Source: Candidatus Wolfebacteria bacterium RIFOXYD12_FULL_48_21 (GTDB taxonomy: Bacteria; Patescibacteriota; Minisyncoccia; UBA6257; UBA9933). Taken from it: DNA of 64,000 nucleotides. The DNA lies in the NCBI GenBank assembly GCA_001793945.1, contig MGIW01000006.1:1584-65583 (forward strand). The letters are read 5' to 3'. The position numbers were made by a program, and so were the translations under genes. The notes beneath the pieces were generated by a model that was given only the letters and a program-made list of their open reading frames with translations, was not told the origin of the DNA and made no database searches. Of this stretch, positions 3,011 to 63,515 are shown in pieces; the stretch's first letter is position 1, and every line of letters begins with the position of its first letter.

Positions 3011-3027
3011 GGGGAGCATGCACTTGA

Positions 3028-7326: not shown

Positions 7327-7330
7327 GTAT

Positions 7331-7363
7331 GGGTAATTTGAAGTTTTTAATTTAGAATTTAAA
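7331..7363. repeat. AT-rich boundary element GTAATTTGAAGTTTTTAATTTAGAATTTAAA (family GTAATTTGAAATTTAGAATT)
   Basis: 5 related copies: 7331, 7717, 15803, 58013, 60686. Confidence 0.75.
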
Positions 7364-7720: not shown

Positions 7721-7775
7721 TTTGAAATTTAGAATTTTTAATTTATATTTTCAAATTTCGAATTTCAAATTGTAA
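7717..7775. repeat. AT-rich boundary element (ggTAAtttgaaatttagaatttttaatttatattttcaaatttcgaatttcaaattg); supplies stop codon of 7364..7720
   Basis: direct repeat of element at 7331. Confidence 0.75.
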
Positions 7776-15070: not shown

Positions 15071-15808
15071 ATGCTTAAAGCGATCGTCAAAAAAACAAAA
15101 AAAATTGCATTGCTTCCGCTTATTATTGGGGATTATTTTGCATTCAAAAAAGCAGCCGGCCGTAACGGGCGCTTTACCGTAAATCTTGGCGATGCTTATC
15201 CGTGTCCTTTTGACAAGACCATGTTGACCGGGTTTGATCGGCATTATGTGTATCATACCGCTTGGGCGGCGCGGAAGGTTGCGTACATAAAGCCGGAGGT
15301 CCATACGGATATATCTTCGAGTCTGTATTTTTCTTCCATCGTTTCGGCTTTTGTGCCGGTAACATTTTATGATTATCGGCCGGCCGATCTTCAGTTGAGC
15401 GGCTTGCTTAGTGAAAAGGCAGATCTGCTTGCATTGCCGTTTGCAGACAATAGTGTTGCGTCGCTTTCATGCATGCATACCGTGGAGCATGTGGGGCTGG
15501 GGCGCTATGGCGACCCTATCGACCTAGATGGCGACCTGAAGGCAATCAAGGAGTTGCAGCGGGTGCTTGCGCCGGGCGGATCGCTGTTGTTCGTAGTACC
15601 GATAGGCAAGGCAAAGATCCAATTTAATGCGCATCGCATCTATTCCTACGCCATGATCATGGAATATTTTAATGATCTTGAGTTGAGGGAGTTTTCGCTT
15701 ATTCCCGAAACAAGCGGCTCCATGATCGTCAATGCAACAAGAGAGCAGGCGGACGAGGAGGCATATGGATGTGGATGCTTTTGGTTTGTGAAGAAAGGGA
15801 ATGGGTAA
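15071..15808 (+). CDS. putative SAM-dependent methyltransferase (Methyltransf_11/DUF268-like); stop codon lies inside AT-rich boundary element
   Basis: LQRVLAPGGSLLFVVPIG motif II-like; weak overall. Confidence 0.4.
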   Translation: MLKAIVKKTKKIALLPLIIGDYFAFKKAAGRNGRFTVNLGDAYPCPFDKTMLTGFDRHYVYHTAWAARKVAYIKPEVHTDISSSLYFSSIVSAFVPVTFYDYRPADLQLSGLLSEKADLLALPFADNSVASLSCMHTVEHVGLGRYGDPIDLDGDLKAIKELQRVLAPGGSLLFVVPIGKAKIQFNAHRIYSYAMIMEYFNDLELREFSLIPETSGSMIVNATREQADEEAYGCGCFWFVKKGNG

Positions 15809-15852
15809 TTTGAAATTTAGAATTTTAAATTTTAAATTTATAATTTTATATA
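15803..15852. repeat. AT-rich boundary element (gggtaatttgaaatttagaattttaaattttaaatttataattttatat)
   Basis: same family as 7331/7717. Confidence 0.75.
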
Positions 15853-16718
15853 TGATCATCATCAAATTAAAAGGAGGGTTGGGGAATCAGATGTTCCAGT
15901 ATGCGTGCGCGAAGCATTTGGCCGAGCGTAATGGTGATGTATTGAAATTGGACATCAGCCTTTACCAACCGGGCAATGCTCCCGCGGGCGATACCGCGCG
16001 TTCGTATGCCTTGGGCGCGTTTTCCATTTCCGCACAGGTGGCGAGCAAAGAAGAGGTCCGGCGGGTCAGGGGGCTACTGTGGCACATTATGGCATTAGCC
16101 ATGAAGGTCATTAACAGGGTGCGGCCGATATCCAGTTACATGTTTGACCCGCAGGTATTAGAACGCAGAGGCAATGTGTATCTGGATGGATATTTTCAAA
16201 GCGAGCGATATTTTAAGGATATAAAAGCTTGCATCAGAAATGAATTCCGATTGCGTGAACCTATGGGTGAGCAGGCGCAGGCCATGTTGCGCGACATCGA
16301 CGGATCGGATTCCGTTTCCCTGCATATACGGCGAGGCGATTATGTGACAAATAAAAACGCCAATGCGTTTCATGGGACCTGCCCGCCCGAATATTATCAT
16401 GCGGCTATCAAGGAAATAGGTAAGCATGTACATTCGCCGAAGTTCTTCATATTTTCTGATGACATCGAATGGGCAAAAGCGGATGTCGGCATGCCGGCTC
16501 ATGCTACCTATGTGTCCCGCGATGGCATAGCAGATTATGAGGAGCTTTTATTGATGAGCAAGTGCAAGCACAACATCATCGCGAACAGCAGTTTTAGCTG
16601 GTGGGGTGCGTGGCTCAATGCAAACTCGAACAAGATCGTTGTTGCGCCGAAGCGGTGGATAAACGACGAGCGTGTCGATACGAGTGATGCGGTGCCTGTG
16701 GAATGGGTTAGTATGTGA
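15852..16718 (+). CDS. alpha-1,2-fucosyltransferase (GT11); start moved from 15801 (which reads through the AT-rich repeat) to Met 15852
   Basis: IIKLKGGLGNQMFQYACAKHLA = canonical GT11 N-terminal motif (FutC-like). Confidence 0.75.
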   Translation: MIIIKLKGGLGNQMFQYACAKHLAERNGDVLKLDISLYQPGNAPAGDTARSYALGAFSISAQVASKEEVRRVRGLLWHIMALAMKVINRVRPISSYMFDPQVLERRGNVYLDGYFQSERYFKDIKACIRNEFRLREPMGEQAQAMLRDIDGSDSVSLHIRRGDYVTNKNANAFHGTCPPEYYHAAIKEIGKHVHSPKFFIFSDDIEWAKADVGMPAHATYVSRDGIADYEELLLMSKCKHNIIANSSFSWWGAWLNANSNKIVVAPKRWINDERVDTSDAVPVEWVSM

Positions 16719-17454: not shown

Positions 17455-18565
17455 ATATTTTTTCGTATTGCCTTACCATCGCTTCTCCTTCGAATTGGGC
17501 GCGGTGGTTTTTTTGTGCTTCGGAATATGTGCTGTCTTTTTGCGAATGAATCGTCTTTACCTTTATGATAAAATCTTCGACATCGTCGAGCTTATAGGTT
17601 TGTGCCGGATCACCGAGCAGTTCCGGTGTGCCGCCGACGCGGGAGGCTAAAATCGGCACTTCGGCAAACATTGCTTCTATGAGCGTTATCGACATACCTT
17701 CGTATTCGGAGGGAAGCGCAAATAGGTCAAATGCTTTGATGTATTGATATGCGTCAACCAGCTCGCCCACAAAAAATACATTGTTTGACAATTTTCTGAG
17801 CCCGATCATGCGCTCGTATTTTTCCCGCTCCGGTCCTTCGCCGATGACAAGTATGGTCGCGTCGGGGATATCGCGCAGGATATCAGGCAGCGTGTCTATA
17901 AGGAATTCATAATTCTTCGGATAGGCAAGGCGGCCTATGGAACCGATGATGAAACGGTTTGAGATGTCTGTTTTTGTCAGCGTGGAAAGGGAAATGCGGG
18001 CTTCATTGCGAGGCAAAAATCGCAATGCATTTGCGGCGATGCCATTGTGGATCACCGTGCCTTTCGCAAGCAGGCCCACCTTTTTCGCATACTCGAAGTT
18101 TTCTTTGCTTACAAATACGGATTCATCGACAAGCGACAGGAGGAACTTGAACAGAAGTCGATATAAGCCCTTTATGATCTTTGACGCGGAAAAATTTGGG
18201 TCTACTATTGAAAGGCCATGCAGTGTAAAAACGATCTTTGGACGATGGCGCAATAATCGTGTGCCGATGACGCCGAACAGCGCATTTGAACTGTTGAAAT
18301 GCACGACATCAAATGAATGTTGCGCGAGAAATGTCCGCAGCTCCCAGCCAAAAAACAGATTCGTGAGCGGGTTTTTTGTCCGACGCAATGAACTGAATCG
18401 AACAATAGAAATGCCTTCCGGGGCCAGCGTGTCGCGCAGGTAGTCTCCTTCGCCACAGGCAACGGTTATTTTGTGTCCTTGTTTGTGCAATATTTTTGCG
18501 AGCGTTGAAACAAAGACTTGCGCTCCGCCGATTTCCCCTTTGGTTATTACGATGAGAATGTTCAT
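17447..18565 (-). CDS. glycosyltransferase family 4 (GT-B)
   Basis: 372 aa, N-terminal NILIVITKGEIGGAQVFV, C-terminal EGMSITLIEAMFAEVPILASRVGG (E-x7-E region). Confidence 0.7.
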   Translation of the reverse strand: MNILIVITKGEIGGAQVFVSTLAKILHKQGHKITVACGEGDYLRDTLAPEGISIVRFSSLRRTKNPLTNLFFGWELRTFLAQHSFDVVHFNSSNALFGVIGTRLLRHRPKIVFTLHGLSIVDPNFSASKIIKGLYRLLFKFLLSLVDESVFVSKENFEYAKKVGLLAKGTVIHNGIAANALRFLPRNEARISLSTLTKTDISNRFIIGSIGRLAYPKNYEFLIDTLPDILRDIPDATILVIGEGPEREKYERMIGLRKLSNNVFFVGELVDAYQYIKAFDLFALPSEYEGMSITLIEAMFAEVPILASRVGGTPELLGDPAQTYKLDDVEDFIIKVKTIHSQKDSTYSEAQKNHRAQFEGEAMVRQYEKIYE

Positions 18566-18690
18566 GATGTGAGGTTGGAGATGTGAGATTAGAGGTGTGA
18601 GGTTGGAGATGGGAGGTATGAGATGCGAGATGAGAGATGAGAGGTGAGAGATGCGAGGTTAGGGGGTGGAGATATGAGACGGGGGGCGGA
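18566..18690. repeat. GA-rich repeat tract (gtgaggttggagatgtgagattagaggtgtgagg...gagatgcgaggttaggggg)
   Basis: direct reading, lies between two minus-strand genes. Confidence 0.7.
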
Positions 18691-20143
18691 GGCGGTGGAG
18701 GATTGGGTCGGTGATTTCTTTAAATGTTGGGTCTTGTAGTAGGTGCAGAATATATCCGTAGAGTGCAGCCGATGCAATGATAATAATGATTGCGTTGAGT
18801 TCGAGTAATGCAAGGCTTATGATGGACATGAAAAGAATAAATGACGCCGTAAGAATGTTCGGCAGTTTTTTTCGTATCGAGATGGATATTTCCTGTTTGA
18901 GCTTGGTGGATAGATAGACCGTGATGATGGTTTGGGTGATCAATGTAGAAAAGGCGGCGCCCGCGATGCCGAAGTGGGGTATCAGTGCCAAATTGAAGAA
19001 AAAGTTGCCGAAGATCCCGATAAGCGCATAGGCGAACAGACTGCGCTCCTTATTGAGCGCGAAAAGCGCGTTGCCCAATATCGGTGCAAGAAAACCTGTA
19101 ATGAATGTAAGCGACATGATCGCAAATGCAAACGAGCCTGCGAGGTACTGGTCGCCGTAGACGATGTATATGATGTCCTTTGCGAGTAGCGCTCCGCCGA
19201 TGGCCATGGGGATGCCTATCATGAGGAGCGCGAGTATCGATCGTTCAAGCGCATGCGTGAAGCGATCTTTGTCATGTGCGAATCGAGCAAGCGAAGGGAA
19301 GAGTGCGGTGCCGAGCAATGCCGGGATCATGAAGATGATCTGTGCTATGCGCAATCCTGCGGAATAATAACCGACATCGGTTATGTCACGAAACCAGCCT
19401 ATCATGATAGTATCGGTGTTGAGCATGGTCGCCGTCATGAGCCCGAGCATGCCAATGGGCCAGCTTGCGTAGAGGATGGGCTTGATGAGTTTCGGATCGA
19501 ATGTTTGGCGAATGTTTTTGAAATAGCGGCGGAATGGATGGAATGCCACAAGCATACCGATGCCGACACCAATGGTGTATCCGACGGAAAGGGAATAGGA
19601 AGTTCCGTAATAGGAGAGCGCAACAAGTCCGCCTATGACAATGGCTATATTGGTAATTATCTGTATTGCCGCTTCGATTTCCATTTTTTCCCATGCGCGG
19701 GAAAGCGATGCGGCAAAATCGCGCATACCGTCGAGACTGACGAGTAGGATAATGATTGGCAAAAGCGCCATAATAGCCTTTTGTTTTATGATGAACGGCG
19801 CGAGTGCAAGGAATATGATAATGGAGGCGACCGTCATGACGAGCTTAATGACGATCGAGGTGGAAAAATATTTTTCCTGCACGGAAAGATCCTTTGCCGA
19901 TTCGCGGGTTATGACCGTGCTGATGCCGAAGTCGGTAAATACCGTAAAGAACGCCGCCAAAGAAAGTGCATAGGAAAAGACACCCCACTCTCCTGCGCCA
20001 AGAATACGCGCAGCATAGATGATGATACCCGCCTTTATGAGCCGGGAGCTGATATTGCCAAAAAAGAGCCAAAATGTATTTTTTTCTATGGTCTGTCGGG
20101 TTGTTTTGTTCTCCAAGAGGAGGGATTTGGCTTTTGAAAACAT
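18659..20143 (-). CDS. polysaccharide flippase (Wzx-like); start moved to Met (MFSKAKSLL..), ORF-track N-terminal 45 aa is translation of repeat DNA
   Basis: multi-TM MOP-family organisation; N-terminus PPYTFYPHPFTPIPYTYYP is low-complexity read-through of GA/TC repeat. Confidence 0.6.
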   Translation of the reverse strand: MFSKAKSLLLENKTTRQTIEKNTFWLFFGNISSRLIKAGIIIYAARILGAGEWGVFSYALSLAAFFTVFTDFGISTVITRESAKDLSVQEKYFSTSIVIKLVMTVASIIIFLALAPFIIKQKAIMALLPIIILLVSLDGMRDFAASLSRAWEKMEIEAAIQIITNIAIVIGGLVALSYYGTSYSLSVGYTIGVGIGMLVAFHPFRRYFKNIRQTFDPKLIKPILYASWPIGMLGLMTATMLNTDTIMIGWFRDITDVGYYSAGLRIAQIIFMIPALLGTALFPSLARFAHDKDRFTHALERSILALLMIGIPMAIGGALLAKDIIYIVYGDQYLAGSFAFAIMSLTFITGFLAPILGNALFALNKERSLFAYALIGIFGNFFFNLALIPHFGIAGAAFSTLITQTIITVYLSTKLKQEISISIRKKLPNILTASFILFMSIISLALLELNAIIIIIASAALYGYILHLLQDPTFKEITDPILHRLRPPSHISTP

Positions 20144-22367: not shown

Positions 22368-22399
22368 GTGAGATTGGAGGTTAGAGGTATGAGGTGTGG
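22368..22399. repeat. GA-rich repeat, left inverted repeat flanking four-helix-bundle gene
   Basis: gtgagattggaggttagaggtatgaggtgtgg; reverse complement recurs at 22811-22855. Confidence 0.65.
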
Positions 22400-22428: not shown

Positions 22429-22809
22429 ATGAACGGAGAATCCTTAAAGATTAGATCGTTTACTGATTTACATGCGTGGCAAGAAGCGCATGCATTAGTG
22501 GTGGCTATTTATACGCTGACAAAGTTGTTTCCCAAGGAAGAGCTTTTTGGATTAACCTCTCAAGTTCGTCGTGCCGCCATATCGGTTCCTTCTAATATTG
22601 CCGAGGGGTTTAGTAGGGGTTCATATAAAGAACGCCATCAATTCTATTCAATAGCAAGGGGATCTCTTACCGAAGTGCAGAGCCAGCTACTTATTGCGCG
22701 AGATGTACATTATATTAATAGGGACATGTGTGAAAAGCTATTTTTGCAAACAGAGACAGTTAGTCGGATAATAAATGGACTTATGAAAAGCACTAAAGCA
22801 TTATGTTGA
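22429..22809 (+). CDS. four-helix-bundle protein (23S rRNA IVS protein family)
   Basis: 126 aa, LTSQVRRAAISVPSNIAEGFSRGSYKERHQFYSIARGSLTEVQSQL. Confidence 0.8.
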   Translation: MNGESLKIRSFTDLHAWQEAHALVVAIYTLTKLFPKEELFGLTSQVRRAAISVPSNIAEGFSRGSYKERHQFYSIARGSLTEVQSQLLIARDVHYINRDMCEKLFLQTETVSRIINGLMKSTKALC

Positions 22810-22810
22810 T

Positions 22811-22855
22811 TATCTTATCTCTCACCTCTGACCTCATACCTCTCATCTCACACCC
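22811..22855. repeat. TC-rich repeat, right inverted repeat partner (tatcttatctctcacctctgacctcatacctctcatctcacaccc)
   Basis: shares cctcatacctct and atctcac with reverse complement of 22368-22399. Confidence 0.65.
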
Positions 22856-25096: not shown

Positions 25097-25270
25097 ATGA
25101 ACTATTTTAGTTGGGCAAAACTTATTCTTGGTCTTTGGGTGTTCGTTTCTCCATGGGTGCTCGGGTTTGCCGGATATCCACTCGCATTGTGGAGCAACAT
25201 TCTGAGCGGCGCGGGCATTGTTGTTCTTGTGCTTTGGACCTTGTTTGGGAAGAGGGATGCTAACAGATAA
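25097..25270 (+). CDS. SPW-repeat small membrane protein
   Basis: MNYFSWAKLILGLWVFVSPWVLGF; start moved to internal Met. Confidence 0.4.
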   Translation: MNYFSWAKLILGLWVFVSPWVLGFAGYPLALWSNILSGAGIVVLVLWTLFGKRDANR

Positions 25271-25420
25271 CAGATAACCAATAACCGATAACGAGATGCG
25301 AGGGAATAACCAATAACCAATAACAGATAACCAATAACCAATAACGGGATGCGGGAAATAACCTATGACAGATAACTAATAACCGATAACGAGATGCGAG
25401 GGGAAAACATAAAATTATTT
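25262..25420. repeat. (ATAACCRATRAC)n low-complexity repeat, three units each ending in G(A/G)GATGCG(A/G)GG
   Basis: taacagataacagataaccaataaccgataacgagatgcgaggg...ataaccaataacgggatgcggg...ataaccgataacgagatgcgagggg. Confidence 0.8.
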
Positions 25421-27715: not shown

Positions 27716-29227
27716 ATGAGATATTTTTTACAAACAATCTTTGCCGCTACTATTGTATTATTTTTTATTGCCAATGTTGGTACTGTTTTTGCCGCGGAGG
27801 GGGATTTGGTGTGGACGCAGGTCAATAACCCGAGTGCGATTTCTGATGCCGCGGGACCCATTGCCGTCGACGCGAGCGGCATTTATGTTGCGGGTTATGA
27901 TACAATCCCCGGCAATTACCAGTGGCGCATAGAAAAGCGCAGCCTTTCCGATGGTGCGGTTATATGGACCAAAACAAGTAACCCGAGTTCGGATACTGAT
28001 TATGCGACAGCCATTGCCATCGACGCGAGCGGCATTTATGTCGCTGGGTATGATTATGTTTCCGGCAGGTTCTTTCGATGGCGCATAGAAAAGCGCAGCC
28101 TTTCCGATGGCGCGGTCATATGGACCAAAACGAATGACCCGAGTGCGAGTCATGATATTGCTAACGCCATTACCATCGACGCGAGCGGTATTTATGTCGC
28201 CGGGTTTGATTCTATTCTCGCCAACTATCAATGGCGCATAGAAAAGCGCAGCCTTTCCGACGGCGCGATCATATGGACCAAAACGAACAACCCGAGTGCG
28301 GGCGGTGATTATGCGACAGCCATTACCGTCGACGCGAGCGGCATTTATGTCGCTGGGGTGGATGCTATTCCCGGAAACAATCAATGGCGCATAGAAAAGC
28401 GCAGCCTTTCCGACGGCGCGGTGATTTGGACCCAAACAAGCAATCCGAGTGCGCAACCTGAGGGTGTAGGCGCCATCACCGTCGACGCGAGCGGCATTTA
28501 TGTCGTCGGTGATGATTTTACTCCCGGTTTCGGCAATTCCCAATGGCGCATAGAAAAGCGCAGCCTTTCCGACGGCGCGGTGATTTGGACCCAAACAAGC
28601 AATCCGAGTGCGAGTTATGATGGCCCTGGATCCATTGCCATCAACGCGATCGGTATTTATGTCGCCGGGTTTGATTCTATTCTCGCCAACTATCAATGGC
28701 GCATAGAAAAGCACAGCCTTTCCGACGGTGCGGTCATATGGACTAAAACGAACAACCCGAGTGCGAGTTCTGATGTCCCGGGAGGCATTGCCGTTGATGC
28801 GATTGGTATTTATGTGGCGGGTAATGACCGTGCGTCCGTCAATGATCAATGGCGCATAGAAAAGCGTGAAAGAGCTTCCTTCATCTGCGCTGGTCCGTTT
28901 GCCGCATCTTGGACCGATTCGACCATTACCGCCAACAGCACCAAGATCCGCAAGGTGCACATCGACGAGTTGCGGAGCGCGATAAACACTCGTCGTATCG
29001 ACGCCGGGTTAACTAACTATTCTTGGACCGATCCGACGATCACAGCCAATTCCACCAAAATCCGTAAGGTGCACATTGATGACCTCCGCACGGCAATTTC
29101 GCAAGTCTATACGACCTGTGGGCAAGCGGCCCCGAGTTGGACCGATCCGACGATCACAGCCAACACCACCAAAATCCGCAAGGTGCATATTGATGAATTG
29201 CGGAGCGCGGTCAGTAATGCCCAATAA
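27716..29227 (+). CDS. secreted SBBP-type beta-propeller repeat protein with C-terminal triple 40-aa repeat
   Basis: signal peptide; 7-8 x ~50 aa blades WRIEKRSLSDGAVIWTKTNNPSA...IDASGIYVAGYD (SBBP-like DxSGnIYVTG); then 3 x SWTDPTITANSTKIRKVHIDELRSAI. Confidence 0.55.
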   Translation: MRYFLQTIFAATIVLFFIANVGTVFAAEGDLVWTQVNNPSAISDAAGPIAVDASGIYVAGYDTIPGNYQWRIEKRSLSDGAVIWTKTSNPSSDTDYATAIAIDASGIYVAGYDYVSGRFFRWRIEKRSLSDGAVIWTKTNDPSASHDIANAITIDASGIYVAGFDSILANYQWRIEKRSLSDGAIIWTKTNNPSAGGDYATAITVDASGIYVAGVDAIPGNNQWRIEKRSLSDGAVIWTQTSNPSAQPEGVGAITVDASGIYVVGDDFTPGFGNSQWRIEKRSLSDGAVIWTQTSNPSASYDGPGSIAINAIGIYVAGFDSILANYQWRIEKHSLSDGAVIWTKTNNPSASSDVPGGIAVDAIGIYVAGNDRASVNDQWRIEKRERASFICAGPFAASWTDSTITANSTKIRKVHIDELRSAINTRRIDAGLTNYSWTDPTITANSTKIRKVHIDDLRTAISQVYTTCGQAAPSWTDPTITANTTKIRKVHIDELRSAVSNAQ

Positions 29228-30086: not shown

Positions 30087-30390
30087 ACTGTCATTCCCGT
30101 GAAAACGGGAATCCAGTTTTCTGTACTTTTTTCTAAGAAAAAAGTACCCGTCGGATTCGTGTAAGAATAATCGAATCCGACAGCCCGGCCCGCTGCACAC
30201 TCTCCGCCGGCCCTGCCTACCGGCAGGCAGGTGGCGGATCGTTAGCAACGCCAAGGGTAAAAAGTCGCGAGCGAATAAAAAATGCCGGAGTACCCTATGC
30301 TGTCATCCCGGGCTTGACCCGGGATCTCGATGATTATTGACGAGATTCTGGCTTCCGCTAGTCTGCGGACAGGCGTGGGCCGGAATGACA
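30087..30390. repeat. Cluster of palindromic elements between rpsB and tsf (gtcattcccgtgaaaacgggaatccag; ccgccggccctgcctaccggcaggcaggtggcgga; gtcatcccgggcttgacccgggat; ...ggccggaatgacat) plus two perfect hairpins 30124-30182
   Basis: direct reading. Confidence 0.8.
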
Positions 30391-31494: not shown

Positions 31495-31581
31495 GGGTGG
31501 GTAGTCCCGTAGGGGCCGGGAGCAGACTGTAAATCTGTCAGGCATGTACTCGCGTGAGTTCGACTCTCACCTCACCCACCA
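31495..31581 (+). tRNA. tRNA-Tyr (anticodon GTA), class II with long variable arm, CCA encoded
   Basis: acceptor GGGTGGG/CTCACCC, anticodon loop CTGTAAA, T-arm GTGAGTTCGACTCTCAC, 3' ACCA. Confidence 0.8.
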
Positions 31582-32564: not shown

Positions 32565-32637
32565 GCCACCTTAGCTCAGCTGGTAGAGCAACGCATTTGT
32601 AATGCGTGGGTCCGCGGTTCGATCCCGCGAGGTGGCT
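32565..32637 (+). tRNA. tRNA-Thr (anticodon TGT)
   Basis: acceptor GCCACCT/AGGTGGC, anticodon stem-loop ACGCA-TTTGTAA-TGCGT, T-arm CGCGGTTCGATCCCGCG. Confidence 0.8.
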
Positions 32638-32681
32638 CAAAGGTTGCAAAACCGTAAAAATAGTGATATATAATAAAGACT

Positions 32682-33061: not shown

Positions 33062-33123
33062 TGTCATTCCCGCGGAGGCGGGAATCCAGTATTATATAGA
33101 TTCCCGCCTCCGCGGGAATGACA
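33062..33123. repeat. palindromic element: gtcattcccgcggaggcgggaatccag...gattcccgcctccgcgggaatgacac (nested inverted copies)
   Basis: direct reading. Confidence 0.8.
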
Positions 33124-33160
33124 CGCAAGAAGATCGTCATAGTGCGATAAGCCCATAAAC

Positions 33161-33231
33161 GGGGGATTAGTTAAATGGTATAATTTCTCTCTCCAAAAGA
33201 GAAGTCGATGGTTCGATTCCTTCATCCCCCG
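33161..33231 (+). tRNA. tRNA-Trp (anticodon CCA)
   Basis: acceptor GGGGGAT/ATCCCCC, anticodon stem-loop TCTCT-CTCCAAA-AGAGA, T-loop GGTTCGATTCC. Confidence 0.75.
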
Positions 33232-33236
33232 CATTT

Positions 33237-33270
33237 AAGAAAATAGACCTTTTGAGGTCTATTTTCTTAA
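33237..33270 (+). terminator. rho-independent terminator (aagaaaatagaccttttgaggtctattttctt)
   Basis: hairpin after tRNA-Trp. Confidence 0.55.
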
Positions 33271-33278
33271 TGGCGTTT

Positions 33279-33378
33279 TTGTCATTCCTGCGAAAGCAGG
33301 AATCTACATCGCCGCAGATTCCTGCTTTCCTGCCCGCAGTTGCTACAGCGTTGCAGACGGGCGCAGGAATGAAAGTGC
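33279..33378. repeat. palindromic element (gtcattcctgcgaaagcaggaatc ... ctttcctgcccgcagttgctacagcgttgcagacgggcgcaggaatga)
   Basis: 45-bp module nearly identical to 3330-3380. Confidence 0.8.
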
Positions 33379-35503: not shown

Positions 35504-35640
35504 GGCAGATGGCGGCCATGTTGTCGGCTACTTCTTCTTGCCGGCGGAGGAGCCGCCGATGCCGTGTTTTACCACATGGTCGTGGTCTCTCTTGTCACCT
35601 TGAATTACGAAACTCTCTTGTTTTGGCATAAGCCAGACCA

Positions 35641-35742
35641 TTGTCATTCCGAGCGTATCCGCCAGTAGGCGGAGCAGTCGAGGAATCTGCAGCGTTTTTA
35701 CTACAGATCCCTCGGCTCCGTTTCACTACACTCGGGATGACA
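35641..35742. repeat. palindromic element (ttgtcattccgagcgtatccgccagtaggcggagcagtcgaggaatctgcag...ctcgggatgacat)
   Basis: direct reading. Confidence 0.75.
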
Positions 35743-35842
35743 TGCCAAGTGTAGTAATCGAGAGTCGTCAGGTTGTCGTGGTGTAGGATGCTAGTACATT
35801 GCCTTGACCTTTTGTACTATAATAGCTATACAGACCATACAT

Positions 35843-37114
35843 ATGCAGCGCATTTATTTGGACAATGCGGCGACCACGCCGCTGGATAGCGAAGTAAAAC
35901 AGGCCATGGAGCCTTATTTTGGCGATACATACGGCAATCCGAACTCGTTGCATTGGTTCGGCCAGCAGGCGCGGGCGGCCGTTGACCGGGCACGCGAAAC
36001 GATCGCCAACGCCATTGGTTCCCGATTTAGAGAGGTCATTTTTACCGGGTCGGCGACCGAAGCGAACAACTTGGCAATACGGGGTGCCATTATGCATGCG
36101 CGTGAGACTTTTAACAAAATTGCCGATGGCCGGCCTATGAAGGTTATTGTTTCGACCATAGAGCATGATTCCATTTTGGCCGCCGTGCGGGACATTGAAA
36201 AAGAAGGTGTGGAGGTGGTGCGCATTCCGGTCGATGGCCGTGGATTTGTGGATGTGCAAAAACTTGAGGCGGCGCTCGACGAACGCACCGTGCTGGTATC
36301 GATCATGTATGCGAACAACGAGATTGGGTCCATACAGCCGATCAAAGAAATCGCGAATATACTTAAAAAGTTTCGCGAACGGGAACATGCGTTGCCCTAT
36401 TATCCGCTATTGCATACCGACGCGGTGCAGGCGTTTCAATTTTTGGATTGCACTGTCGATGAACTGGGTGTCGATTTGATGACGCTTTCGGCACATAAGC
36501 TCTACGGACCGAAAGGCATCGGTGCGTTGTATGCACGCACCATGAATACGGTCATGCACGCAAAGGACAACCGCGTCCACATGATACGCCCTCGCGTATC
36601 GGGAGGCGGGCAGGAGTTTGGCATGCGTTCAGGCACGGAAAATGTGGCCGCCATCGCGGGCTTCGCGAAAGCGGTTGAACTGGCGCAAGTGCATCGCACC
36701 AATGAGGGGGAGCGACTTGTGGGATTGCAAAAACGCTTGTGGATTGGGATTCAGGATGCATGCCCCGAAGCAATCATAAACGGGGTTGAAGTGGATTCCC
36801 GCCTCCGCGGGAATGACAGAGGGGAGGGTGGGAATGACAATACAAAAGAGATGACGCTCCCGAACATTCTTAATGTACATGTGCCCGGTAAAAAGGGAGG
36901 GGATCTGCTCATCGCGCTCGATATGCGCGGCATTGCGGTTTCCAGTGGGTCCGCATGCGCGGCATTTTCCGCAAAGCCGTCCCATGTGCTTATGGCACTT
37001 GGGTTTACCGATGCCCGCGCGGGTGGCAGTCTGCGGTTCAGTTTCGGGCGCCACACGACCCAGGAGGACATCGATGGCGCCGTTGAAGCGCTGCGTGCCG
37101 TTTTGCGGGCCTAA
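35843..37114 (+). CDS. iscS: cysteine desulfurase (IscS/NifS family, class V aminotransferase) carrying an in-frame 48-nt palindromic-repeat insertion
   Basis: MQRIYLDNAATTPLD..., PLP Lys in SAHKLYGPKGIGALY, active-site SSGSACA; insertion DSRLRGNDRGEGGNDN encoded by gattcccgcctccgcgggaatgacagaggggagggtgggaatgacaat. Confidence 0.85.
   Translation: MQRIYLDNAATTPLDSEVKQAMEPYFGDTYGNPNSLHWFGQQARAAVDRARETIANAIGSRFREVIFTGSATEANNLAIRGAIMHARETFNKIADGRPMKVIVSTIEHDSILAAVRDIEKEGVEVVRIPVDGRGFVDVQKLEAALDERTVLVSIMYANNEIGSIQPIKEIANILKKFREREHALPYYPLLHTDAVQAFQFLDCTVDELGVDLMTLSAHKLYGPKGIGALYARTMNTVMHAKDNRVHMIRPRVSGGGQEFGMRSGTENVAAIAGFAKAVELAQVHRTNEGERLVGLQKRLWIGIQDACPEAIINGVEVDSRLRGNDRGEGGNDNTKEMTLPNILNVHVPGKKGGDLLIALDMRGIAVSSGSACAAFSAKPSHVLMALGFTDARAGGSLRFSFGRHTTQEDIDGAVEALRAVLRA
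36794..36841. repeat. palindromic GGAATGACA element embedded in frame in iscS-like CDS
   Basis: sequence identical in style to intergenic copies (cf. 46040-46101, 33062-33123). Confidence 0.8.
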
Positions 37115-46002: not shown

Positions 46003-46101
46003 CAGATTCCTCGTCCGCCGGCTGGCGGATCGGAATGGCAATGCAACATGCTGGATTCCCGCCTCCGCGGGAATGACAGAGAGATGGATGGGAATGACAC
46101 C
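46003..46101. repeat. palindromic elements (cagattcctcgtccgccggctggcggatcggaatggcaat; gattcccgcctccgcgggaatgacagagagatggatgggaatgacac)
   Basis: direct reading; forms spurious N-terminal extension of ORF 45938.. Confidence 0.8.
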
Positions 46102-46141
46102 AATAGAGAAATTGGTGTGGCAAAAGTGGTATACTTATGAC

Positions 46142-47887
46142 ATGAGGATCACCAATGCCGAGATCGCACAATTGTTGAGTGAAATAGCGGAATATCTTGA
46201 AATGGACGATGTGCTATTTAAGCCGCGTGCGTACCAAAAGGTGGCAGATGCCATCGCGGCTTTGGATGAAGAAATTGTCGAGATCCATAAAAAGGGCGGT
46301 TTAAAAGCAGTTAGCAGTATTCCCGGTGTGGGCGCTTCCATTGCAAAAACGATCGAAGAATACATACAAACGGGACGCATCGCCCAATACGAAGAATTGA
46401 AGAAAAAGATCCCTGTCGATCTGCGTAGTTTGACGGCGGTCGAAGGCTTGGGCCCGAAGAAGATCAAGAAATTGTACAAGGCGCTTGATGTTAAAACTTT
46501 GGACGATCTGGAAAAGGCGGCGGCCTCGGGCGCGCTTGCAAAAGTGGAAGGATTTGGCGCGAAGTCGGTGGAGAATATTTTGAAAGGGATCGAATTTGTA
46601 AAGACATCGGGAGGCCGACTTATTTTGGGCAATGCATTTCCCGTGATCGAATATATCAGGGACGGACTTGCGAAAGTCAAAGGAGTGGAGCGCGTGGATA
46701 TTGTTGGTTCGGCGCGGCGGAAAAAGGAAACGGTGGGCGATTTTGACCTGTTGGTCATTGCGAAAGATTCCGGCCCTGTGATGCACTTTTTTGTGCATAT
46801 GGACGAGGTTGTGCTCGTACATGCGCAAGGCGAAACAAAAGCTTCGGTGCGCATTAAGGCGGGCATCGATGTGGATGTTCGCGTTGTCGCGCGGGAATCA
46901 TATGGCGCCGCGCTGTTGTATTTTACCGGGTCAAAGGCGCACAATGTCGCCTTGCGGCAAATGGCCATTAAAAAAGGGTTGAAGCTGAACGAATATGGAC
47001 TGTTCCGCATGAAGGGAGGGAAGGAAGAAAAGATGATCGCTGGCGATACGGAGGAGGGTATTTATAACGCATTGGGTCTTACCTATGTGGAGCCGGAAAT
47101 GCGCGAAGATGTCGGAGAACTTGAGCTTGCACAAAATCATAAACTGCCGGTATTGGTCGATTACGATGCCATGAAAGGAGATATGCAGATGCATACCAAC
47201 TGGAGCGATGGCGCAAATACGATCGAGGAGCTTGCTTATGCGGCCATGGCTTTGGGTTTGGAATATATTGTCATTACGGATCATACGAAGCGATTGACCG
47301 TTGCCAACGGGCTTGATGAGACCCGACTGCTTGAGCATATGAAAGCGGTTGATGCAGTAAATGCGAAACTGAAAAAAGAAGGGAAGAAGTTCACCGTACT
47401 TAAAGGGAGCGAAGTGGACATTTTGAAGGATGGATCCCTCGACATGTCCGATGCAGTTTTGGCGAAGCTGGATGTGGCGGGTGCCTCGGTGCATTCGTAT
47501 TTTAACTTGCCGCGCGAAGCGCAAACGAAACGCATTATTGCTGCTATGGAAAATCCGCATGTGGATATCATTTTTCATCCGACGGGGCGGGTCATTAACA
47601 GGCGACCTGCATATGATGTAGATATGGATGCCATTATCGAGGCGGCGAAGCGCACCAAGACGGTGCTCGAGATCAATGCATTTCCCGATCGGCTCGATCT
47701 TAAAGATGAATATGTACGCAAGTGCGTACGCGCGGGAGTAAAGTTGTCCATCGGTACCGATGCGCATGCCATCGCGCATTTGTCGTATCTTGCGTGGGGT
47801 GTGGGGCAGGCCCGCAGGGGTTGGGCGGAGCGAAGCGATATTGTGAATGCATGGCCTGTGGAGAAGATGAAGAAGATGCTTAAATAA
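46142..47887 (+). CDS. polX: DNA polymerase X family protein with C-terminal PHP phosphoesterase domain (PolX); start moved to MRITNAEIAQLL (alternative Met at 46094 lies inside repeat)
   Basis: HhH motifs (GVGASIAKTIEE, GLGPKKIKKLY), pol-beta-like nucleotidyltransferase GSARRKKETVGDFDLLV, PHP His-rich C-terminus. Confidence 0.8.
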   Translation: MRITNAEIAQLLSEIAEYLEMDDVLFKPRAYQKVADAIAALDEEIVEIHKKGGLKAVSSIPGVGASIAKTIEEYIQTGRIAQYEELKKKIPVDLRSLTAVEGLGPKKIKKLYKALDVKTLDDLEKAAASGALAKVEGFGAKSVENILKGIEFVKTSGGRLILGNAFPVIEYIRDGLAKVKGVERVDIVGSARRKKETVGDFDLLVIAKDSGPVMHFFVHMDEVVLVHAQGETKASVRIKAGIDVDVRVVARESYGAALLYFTGSKAHNVALRQMAIKKGLKLNEYGLFRMKGGKEEKMIAGDTEEGIYNALGLTYVEPEMREDVGELELAQNHKLPVLVDYDAMKGDMQMHTNWSDGANTIEELAYAAMALGLEYIVITDHTKRLTVANGLDETRLLEHMKAVDAVNAKLKKEGKKFTVLKGSEVDILKDGSLDMSDAVLAKLDVAGASVHSYFNLPREAQTKRIIAAMENPHVDIIFHPTGRVINRRPAYDVDMDAIIEAAKRTKTVLEINAFPDRLDLKDEYVRKCVRAGVKLSIGTDAHAIAHLSYLAWGVGQARRGWAERSDIVNAWPVEKMKKMLK

Positions 47888-48075
47888 CCTACAACCGACA
47901 ACTAACGACCTATAACGGGATGCAAAGGTTGTCATTCCGGCCTACGAGCCGGAATCTCATGAAAAAATCATGGGATTATAGATCAAGAAATTTGAAAATT
48001 AATGACATTTAATGTCGTTAAAAATATGCGGGTGCTATTGTCGACGAGATCCCGGGTCAAGCCCGGGATGACAAA
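47887..48075. repeat. (ACAACCGACAACTAACGACCTATAAC)GGGATGC unit followed by palindromic element fragments (ttgtcattccggcctacgagccggaat; gatcccgggtcaagcccgggatgacaa)
   Basis: direct reading. Confidence 0.7.
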
Positions 48076-49978: not shown

Positions 49979-50112
49979 CTTGTCATTCCGAGCGGAGAAG
50001 TACCCTTCGCAGGCGAGGAATCTGCAGTTATGTTACTGCAGATCCTTCGTCCGCCAGCTGGCGGATCAGGATGACGATGTACTGGATTCCGGCCTCCGCC
50101 GGAATGACAAAG
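49979..50112. repeat. palindromic element cluster (cttgtcattccgagcggagaagtacccttcgcaggcgaggaatctgcag...ccgccagctggcggatcaggatgacgat...gattccggcctccgccggaatgacaaa)
   Basis: direct reading; creates spurious TTG-initiated N-terminal extension of ORF 49980.. Confidence 0.8.
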
Positions 50113-53582: not shown

Positions 53583-53776
53583 ATTGAGATAGTATATTTA
53601 ATTCTGTAAGTCGACCCTTCTCATAGGCCTCGAGAGCGCATAAAACAAAAACGTTTTACCTTCATTATCCACATCCGCTACAGCAGTTCAGGATTGGAAG
53701 CAAACTGAGAAAACTTACTGTTCACAGTATAAACCACCTCTCTATAAATAGCAAATGGCGTTGGGGGGGAGGGGGG

Positions 53777-53820
53777 ATAACTGATGACTGATGACTAATG
53801 ACCGATGACGGGATGCGGGG
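53777..53820. repeat. (ATAACTGATGAC)n repeat ending GGGATGCGGGG
   Basis: gataactgatgactgatgactaatgaccgatgacgggatgcgggg; preceded by G-tracts. Confidence 0.75.
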
Positions 53821-58012: not shown

Positions 58013-58045
58013 GAAAGTAATTTGAAATTTAAAATTCGAAATGAC
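58013..58045. repeat. AT-rich boundary element (gaaagtaatttgaaatttaaaattcgaaatgac) abutting start codon of 56115..58010
   Basis: same family as 7331/7717/15803/60686. Confidence 0.7.
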
Positions 58046-60436: not shown

Positions 60437-60685
60437 TTATGTCGATCCGATCAGGCACAGTTTTTGTGCGCGGGTCAATGTTTTAATAAAGGCTTCCCGC
60501 TTGAGCGCTTCGTTGCGCGAGGGCGCTTCTTCCGTATATGCTATGCGCTTTGCTCCACGGGCATGGACATATTTTGAGCCTTTGCCCGCGGCGTGTTCGG
60601 CAAAGCGGCGATCGACATCGGTTGCTATGCCTGTGTAGAGGGACCCGTCCGAGCATTCGAGAATATAAACGAAATAACAAGGCAT
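60437..60685 (-). CDS. GIY-YIG nuclease-family protein (UPF0213-like)
   Basis: 82 aa; YFVYILECSDGSLYTGIATDVDRRFAEH = GIY-YIG signature. Confidence 0.7.
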   Translation of the reverse strand: MPCYFVYILECSDGSLYTGIATDVDRRFAEHAAGKGSKYVHARGAKRIAYTEEAPSRNEALKREAFIKTLTRAQKLCLIGST

Positions 60686-60724
60686 AGGGTAATTTGAAAT
60701 TTAGAATTCGAAATTTGAAATAAA
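60686..60724. repeat. AT-rich boundary element (gggtaatttgaaatttagaattcgaaatttgaaataaaag) abutting GIY-YIG start
   Basis: same family. Confidence 0.7.
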
Positions 60725-60759
60725 AGGGGAGGGTCTTAAATTTCCGCAGGCTGTACTTT

Positions 60760-63094: not shown

Positions 63095-63130
63095 TTCACA
63101 GGAGATAGTTCACGGTTAATTGGTGAGCAT

Positions 63131-63484
63131 ATGCATAATTTTGAACACTTGGATGTGTATAACAAATCGCTGGATATCGTCAATCGTATCTATGGGGTGG
63201 TTAGGGCGTTTCCGAGAGAGGAGCTTTTTTCTTTATCGGATCAATTTAGGCGCGCTGCAACTTCCATTGTTTTGAATATCGCCGAAGGAAGCGGAAGAAG
63301 CAGAAAAGAATTCGCCCATTTCCTTACCGTATCCAGATCGTCTGCATATGAATGCAGTGCTATCGCCGAGATAGCACGAAGGAGGACATATGTCAGCGAA
63401 ACAGAGTTTAAAGAGCTTTATTGTGAATTGGAAGTGATTATCAAGATGCTTAATAGGCTCAGGCAATCCATCCGTGAACTGTGA
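63131..63484 (+). CDS. four-helix-bundle protein (23S rRNA IVS protein family), inserted between pilC and pilin gene
   Basis: LSDQFRRAATSIVLNIAEGSGRSRKEFAHFLTVSRSSAYECSAIAEI; flanked by inverted agttcacgg / ccgtgaact. Confidence 0.8.
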   Translation: MHNFEHLDVYNKSLDIVNRIYGVVRAFPREELFSLSDQFRRAATSIVLNIAEGSGRSRKEFAHFLTVSRSSAYECSAIAEIARRRTYVSETEFKELYCELEVIIKMLNRLRQSIREL

Positions 63485-63515
63485 ACCGTCGACCGTAAAC
63501 GGTGCCGTAGTTAAT

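What the first reader, a model, noticed from the sequence alone, without database searches (positions are those of the whole stretch)
36794..36841. Palindromic repeat inserted in frame inside the cysteine desulfurase (IscS/NifS-like) gene
A 48-nt segment (gattcccgcctccgcgggaatgacagaggggagggtgggaatgacaat) matches the intergenic palindromic family. It sits within the CDS 35843..37114 and is translated as DSRLRGNDRGEGGNDN. It lies between the conserved ING and RLPN blocks, where homologs have only a few residues, and the reading frame is preserved downstream through the active-site SSGSACA motif. This matches the behaviour of Rickettsia palindromic elements, which insert in frame into protein-coding genes and appear as surface loops. 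The same DNA words also recur inside the spurious N-terminal ORF extensions at 2289, 45938 and 49980.
Basis: partly seen in the sequence, partly recalled or inferred. Interest (0 to 1): 0.8.

Follow-up and report, generated by a model that had tools for sequence, protein, structure and literature searches.

The report
Hairpin repeat inside cysteine desulfurase gene
A 27-base hairpin repeat that otherwise lies between genes in this tiny-genome (Candidate Phyla Radiation) bacterium sits in frame, with a 21-base partial copy, in a disordered loop of an intact cysteine desulfurase gene, and relatives carry variant hairpins at the same codon; this is a small-scale counterpart of the Rickettsia palindromic elements, built from a different, recently described repeat family.

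Summary
CDS 35843..37114 is an intact IscS/NifS-type cysteine desulfurase from a Wolfebacteria-like CPR genome. At 36792-36839 it carries a 27-nt hairpin unit (palindrome 36795-36814) plus a 21-nt head-only module, translated as DSRLRGNDRGEGGND. Solved homologues and 13 of the 29 aligned relatives lack the segment. AlphaFold2 models it as low-confidence coil between a helix and a strand.

The repeat is not an RPE. On the minus strand it reads TGTCATTCCCGCGGAGGCGGGAATCCAC, which matches 25/28 positions of the Neisseria NTS/dRS3 consensus. That places it by sequence among the Ssn-related motif (SRM) hairpins, the ssDNA substrates of GIY-YIG Ssn nucleases.

Nine orthologues carry a 27-nt unit at the same codon, phase and orientation, but with stem subfamilies that always stay paired. 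The unit averages 84% pairwise identity, against about 42% at flanking third codon positions, so the constraint or homogenisation acts on the DNA.

A strain with about 95% DNA identity carries a different SRM cassette within a ~210-bp divergent block centred on the insert.

How the element moves is unknown. No Ssn-type gene or transposase was found in the window.

It is a new member of a known kind, of moderate interest.

The parts
35843..37114 (+). IscS/NifS-type cysteine desulfurase CDS (423 aa) that hosts the insert
   Evidence: Pfam PF00266 at 2e-69. PDB IscS/NFS1 matches at 1e-73 to 1e-79. Foldseek to NFS1/IscS with TM 0.78-0.85. Catalytic residues are invariant in alignment A1. Orthologues share ClpB downstream and Peptidase_M3 upstream.
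36792..36818 (-). 27-nt SRM/NTS-type hairpin unit. The minus strand reads TGTCATTCCCGCGGAGGCGGGAATCCA; the plus strand is translated as (V)DSRLRGND.
   Evidence: 3 mismatches to the 28-nt Neisseria NTS consensus, with 0 matches expected. Same length, codon phase and orientation in nine orthologues. Deleting the equivalent 27 nt from L161 restores the 10-residue loop length of the empty allele in L170.
36795..36814 (.). Perfect palindrome with an 8-bp stem (ATTCCCGC/GCGGGAAT) and a 4-nt loop
   Evidence: The ssDNA fold is -8.9 kcal/mol, z = -2.6. All 72 stem cells are paired across nine orthologues, and 3 pairs change on both sides.
36819..36839 (-). 21-nt head-only module (minus strand TGTCATTCCCACCCTCCCCTC), translated as RGEGGND
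   Evidence: A second TGTCATTCC head lies 21 nt from the first. The same 21-nt spacing is seen in the intergenic copies 46070/46091 and 3373/3394.
36840..36845 (.). Possible 3' extension of the inserted element (ATACAA)
   Evidence: The string GGAATGACAATACAA is shared with intergenic copy 3394-3408 (family D18). This is weak evidence.
36670..36880 (.). Divergent block within the gene, centred on the insert, when compared with a closely related strain
   Evidence: Window versus L001 is 93-100% identical across the gene and its flanks but only 20-63% identical here. L171 is 100% identical here. A tree of the helix-plus-loop segment groups sequences by loop type rather than by the rest of the gene.
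46051..46099 (-). Closest intergenic copy of the same two-module element, upstream of a PolX-like gene
33062..33123 (.). Two intergenic copies of the same hairpin in opposite orientations, upstream of tRNA-Trp
50083..50109 (-). Intergenic subfamily copy with stem ATTCCGGC/GCCGGAAT, the same stem as the orthologue insert in L168
3082..3109 (-). Intergenic subfamily copy with stem ATTCCCGT/ACGGGAAT and loop TTTC. Its 20-nt palindrome is identical to the orthologue insert in L169. An inverted twin lies at 30089-30116.

Best explanation
The segment is a copy of a short, non-autonomous hairpin repeat of the NTS/dRS3/SRM type. This genome is littered with such modules between genes. They share a TGTCAT(T/C)CC head, a GC-rich 8-bp stem, a 4-nt loop and a GG(A/G)ATC(C/T) tail.

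In an ancestor of a Wolfebacteria subclade, one 27-nt unit landed in the loop that joins the large PLP domain to the small C-terminal domain of the IscS-like cysteine desulfurase. Later a 21-nt head-only module was added.

The insertion was tolerated for three reasons:
- The unit is 9 codons long.
- It is open in 5 of 6 reading frames.
- In the frame used it encodes a hydrophilic peptide (DSRLRGND) placed in a permissive, disordered loop.

The enzyme therefore stays functional and the repeat is translated as an extra loop.

The DNA, not the peptide, is what is kept. Orthologues hold the same 27-nt unit at the same codon, and its stem switches between the same subfamilies that circulate in intergenic DNA. 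This implies homogenisation from the genomic repeat pool (conversion or re-insertion), exchange of whole helix-plus-loop cassettes by homologous recombination between lineages, or both.

Shown here: the identity of the repeat family, the in-frame insertion, the disordered loop in the model, the polymorphism, the DNA-level conservation and the mosaic block.

Inferred: that the insert is translated, that it is neutral or selfish, and that a hairpin-specific ssDNA enzyme (Ssn-type GIY-YIG nuclease or similar) drives its spread and homogenisation.
For: Family identity:
- The iscS copy matches the Neisseria NTS consensus CGTCATTCCCGCGMAVGCGGGAATCYRG at 25/28 positions, and intergenic copies at 26/28. 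There are 6 window matches against 0 expected (consensus from PMC11893778).
- The oriented flanks that the paper found critical are present: GTC before the palindrome and C directly after it.
- Five other window sites fit the published degenerate SRM pattern, against 0.16 expected.

Insertion:
- The segment is absent from PDB homologues and from 13 of the 29 aligned relatives.
- L161 minus the 27 nt has the same 10-residue loop length as the empty allele L170.

Intact gene:
- Catalytic residues are invariant, and the model has the IscS/NFS1 fold.

Loop:
- Residues 316-336 have pLDDT below 50 and no secondary structure, while the flanking 10-residue blocks average 88-94.

DNA-level constraint:
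- The 27-nt unit has the same phase in all 9 orthologues.
- Mean pairwise identity is 0.84, against 0.71 and 0.69 for the most conserved flanking coding blocks and 0.43 and 0.41 at their third codon positions.
- The stem is 100% paired, with 3 pairs changed on both sides.
- The palindromes of L169 and L168 are identical to the intergenic window subfamilies at 3086 and 50086.

Turnover and recombination:
- L001 is 93-100% identical elsewhere but carries a different SRM composite (TCCTGAA/TTCAGGA stem) within a ~210-bp divergent block.
- L163 has three modules in both orientations at the site.
- Presence and absence are patchy on the gene tree, and the helix-plus-loop segment clusters by loop type.
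- The intergenic SRM block 35577-35790 is present in the window but replaced by unrelated sequence in L001 and L171.
Against: - No Ssn-type (cd10448) gene, RAYT or transposase was found in the 64-kb window. The only GIY-YIG ORF (60437-60685) is UPF0213/YhbQ-like and is not flanked by SRMs. The proposed enzymatic driver is therefore unsupported here.
- The iscS copy itself fails the strict published SRM regular expression at one loop position.
- Only one of about 14 family hairpins in the window is inside a real CDS. No other in-CDS case turned up in about 1 Mb of fetched loci. Insertion into genes therefore looks rare rather than systematic.
- Translation of the insert rests on frame conservation in called proteins, which are a biased sample. 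No expression data are available.
- The same site, phase and orientation in all orthologues would also fit a single ancient insertion kept by selection.
Confidence: 0.7

Rival explanations
1. The intragenic hairpin is a functional cis-element kept by selection. One possibility is a recognition and cleavage site for an Ssn-type ssDNA nuclease that limits or punctuates recombination tracts during natural transformation. Another is an mRNA hairpin that pauses translation at the domain boundary. Under either version the peptide is only a by-product.
For: - The 27-nt unit is more conserved than the best-conserved coding blocks and far more than synonymous sites.
- All stem variants stay fully paired, with changes on both sides.
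- The GTC and C flanks needed for Ssn cleavage and binding in Neisseria are retained.
- The divergent block between near-identical strains is centred on the element.
- The window encodes type IV pilus / T2SS-type ATPase and platform genes, which is compatible with competence.
- In Neisseria, NTS/Ssn interaction modulates transformation, and genes next to dRS3 are more diverse (PMC11893778).
Against: - Thirteen of the 29 aligned relatives, including close ones (P0010, P0014, P0017), lack the element entirely, so it is dispensable.
- No Ssn gene has been shown in this organism.
- The stem variants coincide with pre-existing genomic subfamilies, which fits homogenisation or replacement as well as it fits selection.
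- The RNA fold of the surrounding 101 nt is not exceptional (z = -0.9).
Confidence: 0.18
2. There was one ancient insertion, followed purely by in-situ compensatory evolution of the stem, with no further input from other repeat copies.
For: Site, codon phase, orientation and 27-nt length are identical in all nine orthologues. Paired changes occur on both sides of the stem.
Against: - The palindromes of L169 and L168, including their loops, are identical to independent intergenic subfamilies in the window. L169 differs from the window's insert at 4 positions and L168 at 2. Reaching exactly these forms by chance is unlikely.
- L001 holds an unrelated SRM subfamily together with divergent flanks.
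- Presence and absence do not follow the gene tree.
Confidence: 0.08
3. The extra loop is an adaptive protein feature, for example a new interaction surface of the desulfurase. The resemblance to the repeat would then reflect recruitment followed by selection on the peptide.
For: The frame used gives a hydrophilic, charged peptide suited to a surface. The insert persists across lineages that share only 70-78% protein identity.
Against: - Peptide content beyond the hairpin-encoded octamer varies freely in length and sequence, from 8 to about 45 residues.
- Conservation follows DNA pairing rather than amino-acid similarity: DSRLRGND, DTGLRRYD and DSRFHGND all occur.
- The model predicts disorder.
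- Many close relatives lack the insert.
Confidence: 0.03
4. The feature is an artefact: a chance palindrome, a misassembly, or a decaying pseudogene.
For: None was found beyond the general risk of chimeric assembly in metagenome-derived genomes.
Against: - Matches to the family far exceed the shuffled expectation.
- The identical insert occurs in an independent groundwater assembly (L171), and variants occur in eight other independent assemblies.
- The ORF is intact, with all catalytic residues.
Confidence: 0.01

Closest known systems
Neisseria NTS / dRS3 repeats and the wider Ssn-related motifs (SRM), substrates of GIY-YIG ssDNA nucleases of the Ssn family (Chenal et al. 2025, PMC11893778)
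   Same: - Near-identical sequence: 25-26 of 28 positions of CGTCATTCCCGCGMAVGCGGGAATCYRG.
- Same 8-bp ATTCCCGC stem and same oriented flanks (GTC upstream, C downstream).
- Multi-copy and clustered.
- Several stem subfamilies share the same termini.
- Associated with locally elevated sequence diversity and mosaicism between strains.
   Different: - The host is a CPR/Patescibacteria genome, a group not mentioned in that paper's main text.
- This copy lies inside a coding sequence and is translated. The paper describes copies that surround genes and says nothing about copies inside coding sequences.
- No cd10448 Ssn gene was found in the window.
- The loop (GGAG) falls just outside the published degenerate SRM pattern.
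Rickettsia palindromic elements (RPE; Ogata et al. 2000 Science, as summarised in PMC10969869)
   Same: - A palindromic repeat present both between genes and in frame inside unrelated housekeeping genes.
- Compatible with protein fold and function.
- Ends up as an extra peptide segment.
   Different: - RPEs are about 100-150 bp and encode 30-50 residues, and 44 insertions into genes were counted in one genome. This element is a 27-nt unit (48-54 nt as a composite).
- It is of an unrelated repeat family, from an unrelated phylum.
- It is the only in-CDS case among about 14 window copies.
REP/BIME elements with RAYT (Y1) transposases of Gammaproteobacteria
   Same: Short (20-40 nt) GC-rich imperfect palindromes with an oriented conserved head, clustered in intergenic mosaics, and presumed to be handled as ssDNA hairpins.
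   Different: - REPs are by definition extragenic.
- They have a GTAG-type head and are linked to a RAYT gene flanked by REPs.
- No Y1 transposase was detected in the window, and the head here is TGTCAT.
Small dispersed repeats of heterocyst-forming cyanobacteria (Elhai et al. 2008; cited from my own knowledge, not checked here)
   Same: Very short (about 21-27 nt) palindromic mobile repeats that nest within each other and are occasionally found inside coding sequences without breaking the frame.
   Different: Different sequence families and phylum. No link to NTS/SRM is known.

Membership tests
NTS/SRM (Ssn-related motif) hairpin repeats | Match to the 28-nt NTS consensus CGTCATTCCCGCGMAVGCGGGAATCYRG | tested here: met
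   The iscS copy matches 25/28 positions and intergenic copies 26/28. There are 6 window matches at up to 3 mismatches against 0 in 100 shuffles.
NTS/SRM (Ssn-related motif) hairpin repeats | Match to the published degenerate SRM pattern HGTCWYN(0-2)YYVSBRHN(0-5)WNVSBRGN(0-2)RNCYNB | tested here: not met
   The iscS copy and its exact intergenic twins fail at one loop position (G where H is required). Five sibling hairpins in the window do match, against 0.16 expected.
NTS/SRM (Ssn-related motif) hairpin repeats | Hairpin-forming palindrome with oriented, non-palindromic flanks: three conserved bases upstream and a C directly after the palindrome | tested here: met
   The minus strand reads tGTC-ATTCCCGCGGAGGCGGGAAT-Cca. 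The importance of these flanks is taken from PMC11893778.
NTS/SRM (Ssn-related motif) hairpin repeats | Many copies per genome, enriched over chance | tested here: met
   8 palindrome matches against 0.05 expected. 35 TGTCATYCC heads against 1.09 expected. About 14 strict hairpins in 64 kb.
NTS/SRM (Ssn-related motif) hairpin repeats | Genome encodes an SsnA homologue (GIY-YIG, cd10448), often flanked by the repeats | tested here: inconclusive
   The only GIY-YIG ORF in the window (60437-60685) is closest to UPF0213 proteins (1zg2, 2.8e-20) and has no SRM flanks. None was found in 1 Mb of fetched loci. The rest of the genome was not available.
NTS/SRM (Ssn-related motif) hairpin repeats | Specific cleavage of the single-stranded repeat by the cognate Ssn nuclease | not testable with these tools
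   This needs a biochemical assay.
Rickettsia palindromic elements (RPE) | In-frame insertion in protein-coding genes, compatible with fold and function | tested here: met
Rickettsia palindromic elements (RPE) | Element of about 100-150 bp belonging to one of the RPE sequence families of Rickettsia | tested here: not met
   The unit is 27 nt (48-54 nt as a composite). The host is a CPR bacterium. The sequence belongs to the NTS/SRM family. RPE sizes are taken from PMC10969869. No direct alignment to RPE consensus sequences was possible.
REP/BIME with RAYT | Extragenic palindromes associated with a REP-flanked Y1 transposase (RAYT) | tested here: not met
   This copy is intragenic. No Y1_Tnp or other transposase Pfam hit was found in about 50 window ORFs. 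Genome-wide absence was not tested.
IscS/NifS group I cysteine desulfurases (host gene) | Fold-type I PLP enzyme with the PLP lysine, the SSGSAC(A) cysteine loop and conserved His, Asp, Gln and Arg residues | tested here: met
   PF00266. NCBIfam NifS/IscS models score 257-368 bits but stay below the equivalog cut-offs. Invariant K219, C372, H108, D193, Q196 and R398. Foldseek TM 0.78-0.85 to NFS1/IscS.

The most novel reading that the evidence does not exclude
SRM hairpins embedded in essential genes of CPR bacteria are not passive passengers. They would be maintained sites for a hairpin-specific ssDNA nuclease or recombination system that defines cassette boundaries during natural transformation. 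A housekeeping enzyme would then carry an exchangeable helix-plus-loop cassette whose hairpin co-evolves with the genome-wide repeat pool. This would extend the Neisseria NTS/Ssn transformation-control system into coding sequences and into the Candidate Phyla Radiation.
Probability: 0.12. Interest if true: 0.7.

Novelty: new member of a known kind. Interest (0 to 1): 0.45.

Why it matters
- It identifies the abundant TGTCAT...GGAATC hairpins of a CPR genome as close sequence relatives of the Neisseria NTS/dRS3 repeats. Those repeats are the only members of this family with a known interacting enzyme, so a repeat class so far characterised mainly in Pseudomonadati is extended to Patescibacteria.
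- It shows that such a unit can live inside an intact housekeeping gene as a translated loop, because it is 27 nt long and open in 5 of 6 frames.
- The orthologue series is a natural experiment in which nucleotide-level constraint (pairing, subfamily identity) can be separated from protein-level constraint.
- The sharp mosaic block between about 95% identical strains makes a link between these hairpins and recombination testable.
- In practice, peptides such as DSRLRGND, VIPAEAGI and SFPRRRES in CPR protein predictions flag repeat-derived segments or spurious ORF extensions.

Tried and rejected
1. The metagenome contigs and genome-contig scans for close orthologues returned only one close relative, L001. 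Orthologue DNA had to be fetched one protein at a time.
2. I searched for other proteins that carry the repeat peptide in frame. The 30-residue query against 1.84 billion representatives gave 6 hits: five short ORFs made of tandem LDSRLRGND-type repeats, and one unrelated repeat protein. None is an evident real enzyme. This is uninformative about how general the phenomenon is.
3. I tested whether the other variable inserts of CPR IscS homologues (hotspots after residues 91, 183 and 239) derive from repeats in their own flanks. Shared-word lengths were no better than controls given only about 6 kb of flank, so this is inconclusive.
4. A scan of about 1 Mb of fetched loci for SRM-like hairpins inside long ORFs found only the iscS site of the Wolfebacteria clade.
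5. A phmmer search for further GIY-YIG genes in all loci found none.
6. Rfam had no family at the site. The only hit was a meaningless NEAT1 match at E = 0.9.
7. The RNA fold of the 101-nt context is not exceptional (z = -0.9), so there is no support for a larger structured RNA.
8. Literature searches for CPR palindromic or in-frame repeats found nothing relevant. The supplements of the Ssn paper are not held, so its taxon lists could not be checked for CPR.
9. Rejected after alignment and independent assemblies: conserved ancestral loop, pseudogene, misassembly, and membership in the RPE family.
Full report
**Observation.** This ORF is a class-V aminotransferase of the IscS/NifS cysteine-desulfurase type. 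Support comes from Pfam PF00266 at 2e-69, NCBIfam NifS/IscS models at 257-368 bits, and the best PDB hits 9wep, 1p3w, 3lvj and NFS1 at 1e-73 to 1e-79. Its closest database relatives are annotated Candidatus Wolfebacteria, that is CPR/Patescibacteria. The 20-nt perfect palindrome ATTCCCGCCTCCGCGGGAAT (36795-36814) recurs exactly at 33066, 33100 and 46055, and with two mismatches at four more sites. That is 8 matches against 0.05 expected. The stretch 36792-36852 is 84% identical to intergenic 46052-46112.

**Anatomy of the insert.** Alignment with intergenic copies puts the left edge at 36792 (TGGATTCC...) and the right edge at 36839, or possibly 36845. The insert has two modules. The first is a 27-nt hairpin unit at 36792-36818. 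The second is a 21-nt module at 36819-36839 that repeats only the head word TGTCATTCC on the minus strand. The same head-21-nt-head arrangement occurs at 46070/46091 and 3373/3394. Reading the 27-nt unit directly shows that five of its six frames are open. The frame used gives DSRLRGND.

**What repeat family it is.** On the minus strand the unit reads TGTCATTCCCGCGGAGGCGGGAATCCAC. Chenal et al. 2025 (PMC11893778) define the Neisseria Transformation Sequence as CGTCATTCCCGCGMAVGCGGGAATCYRG. It contains the classic dRS3 palindrome ATTCCC-N8-GGGAAT.
- In that paper NTS is the ssDNA substrate of the GIY-YIG nuclease SsnA (cd10448).
- Related Ssn-related motifs (SRM) are reported across several phyla, usually together with an ssnA homologue.
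- The iscS copy matches NTS at 25/28 positions and the intergenic copies at 26/28. There are six window matches against none in shuffles.
- The three bases before the palindrome and the C directly after it, which the paper found critical for cleavage and binding, are present.
- Five sibling hairpins in the window fit the published degenerate SRM expression, against 0.16 expected. The iscS copy misses that expression by one loop base.
- More generally, the intergenic DNA of the window is a mosaic of modules that share the TGTCAT(T/C)CC head (35 occurrences against 1.09 expected) and a GG(A/G)ATC tail, with varied stems.

By sequence the element belongs to the NTS/SRM family, not to the Rickettsia RPEs.

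**Is it an insertion, and is the gene intact?**
- In the HMMER alignments to solved IscS proteins the segment faces gaps.
- In a 30-sequence alignment of the window protein and 29 relatives, 13 relatives have no insert. Examples are NGAEYKTIPN in P0014 and NNPFVDGGAYLPN in P0010 and P0015-22.
- In L161 (Wolfebacteria GW2011_GWC2_39_22), deleting exactly the 27-nt unit restores a 10-residue loop of the same length as the empty allele in L170.
- The PLP lysine, the SSGSAC cysteine and the other invariant residues are conserved.
- AlphaFold2 (pTM 0.79) reproduces the IscS/NFS1 fold, with Foldseek TM 0.78-0.85.
- The model gives residues 316-336 pLDDT below 50 and no secondary structure, between helix 285-306 and strand 342-346. 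The flanking 10-residue blocks average 88-94.
- The identical insert occurs in an independent groundwater assembly (L171), which excludes an assembly artefact.

**Orthologue series.** I fetched DNA for eleven orthologues. Nine genes (the window and eight of the orthologues) carry a 27-nt unit at the same codon, in the same phase and in the same orientation, with the NTS strand being the template strand. Their stems differ:

| Stem | Where found |
|---|---|
| ATTCCCGC/GCGGGAAT | window, L161, L166 |
| ATTCTCGC/GCGGGAAT | L165 (one G-T pair) |
| ATTCCCGT/ACGGGAAT | L169 |
| ATTCCGGC/GCCGGAAT | L168 |
| ATACCGGC/GCCGGTAT | L162, L163, L167 |

- All 72 stem cells pair, and three pairs change on both sides.
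- The L169 and L168 palindromes, loops included, are identical to the intergenic window subfamilies at 3086 and 50086. The variants are therefore members of circulating subfamilies rather than private compensatory drift.
- L163 has accumulated three modules in both orientations at the site.
- The 27-nt unit averages 84% pairwise identity. The most conserved flanking coding blocks average 71% and 69%, and their third codon positions 43% and 41%. What is conserved or homogenised is the DNA, not the peptide.

**Mosaicism.**
- The window and L001 (Wolfebacteria RIFOXYB1_FULL_54_12) are 93-100% identical across the gene and its flanks, apart from two blocks.
- The first block is the intergenic stretch 35600-35790. 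In the window it holds two long SRM-type modules, and in L001 and L171 it holds unrelated sequence.
- The second block is a ~210-bp stretch at 36670-36880, centred on the insert. There L001 carries a different SRM composite (TCCTGAA/TTCAGGA stem, 34 extra residues) and a diverged preceding helix.
- L171 shares the window's iscS cassette but shares L001's upstream block, so the two blocks assort independently.
- On neighbour-joining trees, insert presence is patchy and the helix-plus-loop segment clusters by loop type rather than with the rest of the gene.

This pattern fits cassette exchange by homologous recombination. It echoes the elevated diversity reported next to dRS3/NTS in Neisseria.

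**Mechanism.**
- Best supported (about 0.7): a selfish or neutral SRM unit landed in a permissive inter-domain loop. It was tolerated because it is 9 codons long, open in the frame used and hydrophilic. It is translated as a disordered loop. It is kept similar to the genomic pool by conversion or re-insertion, and by exchange of whole cassettes.
- The enzymatic driver is inferred only. The window's single GIY-YIG ORF (60437-60685) is UPF0213/YhbQ-like (1zg2, 2.8e-20), it is not flanked by SRMs, and it is not shown to be cd10448. No transposase or RAYT appears among about 50 ORFs scanned.
- Main rival (about 0.18): the hairpin is a maintained cis-site, either an Ssn target that punctuates recombination or an mRNA pause. 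The DNA-level conservation and the centred mosaic block favour this rival. The many insert-free close relatives weaken it.
- Pure in-situ compensation, an adaptive peptide loop and an artefact are each unlikely for the reasons listed under the rivals.

**How general is it?** Only one of about 14 strict family hairpins in the window lies in a real CDS. The copies at 46055 and 50086 are upstream of the true starts. No other in-CDS case appeared in about 1 Mb of fetched loci. A 120-homologue alignment shows four variable-insert hotspots in CPR IscS proteins, after residues 91, 183, 239 and 320. A repeat origin for the other three could not be shown. The peptide search of 1.84 billion representatives returned five short ORFs made of tandem LDSRLRGND-type repeats and one unrelated repeat protein. 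This confirms that the peptide is a common translation artefact of this repeat family, but it does not reveal further real insertions.

**Comparison and novelty.**
- In behaviour the element resembles RPEs: in-frame, tolerated and forming an extra loop (PMC10969869). It fails RPE membership on size, family and host.
- By sequence it belongs with NTS/dRS3/SRM. The functional criterion of a cognate Ssn is untested.
- I found no report in the held literature of SRM/NTS units inside coding sequences, or of this family in CPR. The paper's supplements were unavailable.

I rate it a new member of a known kind, namely short palindromic repeats that colonise coding sequences. It carries an interesting and testable twist in the subfamily turnover and the mosaic block at a fixed codon. 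Interest is 0.45.

Noticed in passing
window 7364-7720, 22429-22809, 63131-63484 (all +): There are three genes of the PF05635 '23S rRNA-intervening sequence protein' family (four-helix bundle). Each is bracketed by arrays of heptanucleotide repeats that differ between the genes. For two of them the arrays on the two sides are inverted relative to each other: 22368-22399 against 22813-22855, and 63093-63120 against 63472-63512. The third gene has AT-rich heptad arrays on both sides (7330-7370 and 7716-7772), and their relative orientation is less clear. They look like cassettes inserted between housekeeping genes.
   Followed up: partly
window 2936-3016, 18550-18706, 25258-25404, 3128-3166, 47882-47920, 53775-53813, 15794-15864, 58017-58042, 60678-60730: Intergenic DNA is full of tandem heptad arrays of at least three types (GAGRTGW, RATAACY and AATTTRA), often next to gene starts and next to the SRM hairpins. 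Their function is unknown.
   Followed up: no
window 60437-60685 (-): An 82-aa GIY-YIG ORF (PF01541, 2.4e-17) is closest to the UPF0213/YhbQ-like structures 1zg2 and 1ywl. It is the only GIY-YIG gene in the window, it is not flanked by SRM hairpins, and it is not shown to be an Ssn (cd10448) nuclease.
   Followed up: partly
window 35577-35790: The intergenic block just upstream of the desulfurase gene holds two long SRM-type modules (35641-35692 and 35702-35742). In the two closest strains (L001, L171) it is replaced by unrelated sequence, although the flanks are 95-100% identical. This is evidence of recent repeat turnover.
   Followed up: partly
window 36545-36580 (protein residues ~236-246) and residues 235-265: A second, clade-specific extra segment (TVMHAKDNRVH) is shared by the Wolfebacteria orthologues and absent from more distant homologues. 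It lies within a stretch of pLDDT below 50. No repeat origin was detected.
   Followed up: partly
window 33062-33303 around tRNA-Trp 33161-33232: SRM hairpins flank the tRNA-Trp gene on both sides: 33062-33089 and 33096-33123 upstream, and 33280-33303 downstream. tRNA-Tyr (31495-31581) and tRNA-Thr (32565-32638) lie nearby.
   Followed up: no
window 27716-29227 (+): This ORF contains seven tandem 153-nt (51-residue) repeats and three 114-nt repeats. It has only weak Pfam hits and is probably a repeat-rich surface protein.
   Followed up: no
homologues P0026-P0120 (no window coordinates): CPR IscS homologues range from 386 to 491 residues. Variable low-complexity inserts concentrate at four hotspots, after window residues 91, 183, 239 and 320. 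Some insert peptides look like translated repeats, for example ...FSFPSAAEPRL... and ...NSKFLIHNSEL....
   Followed up: partly
window 60760-63094 (+): A type II/IV secretion ATPase (T2SSE) gene and a platform (T2SSF) gene could belong to a type IV pilus. This would matter if the hairpins relate to natural transformation.
   Followed up: no
L163 3070-3227: One orthologue (P0008) has three hairpin modules in both orientations in the same loop: DTGLRRYD, VTPAEAGVQ and NSRLRGDG. Together they add about 45 residues, which shows that modules accumulate next to existing ones.
   Followed up: partly
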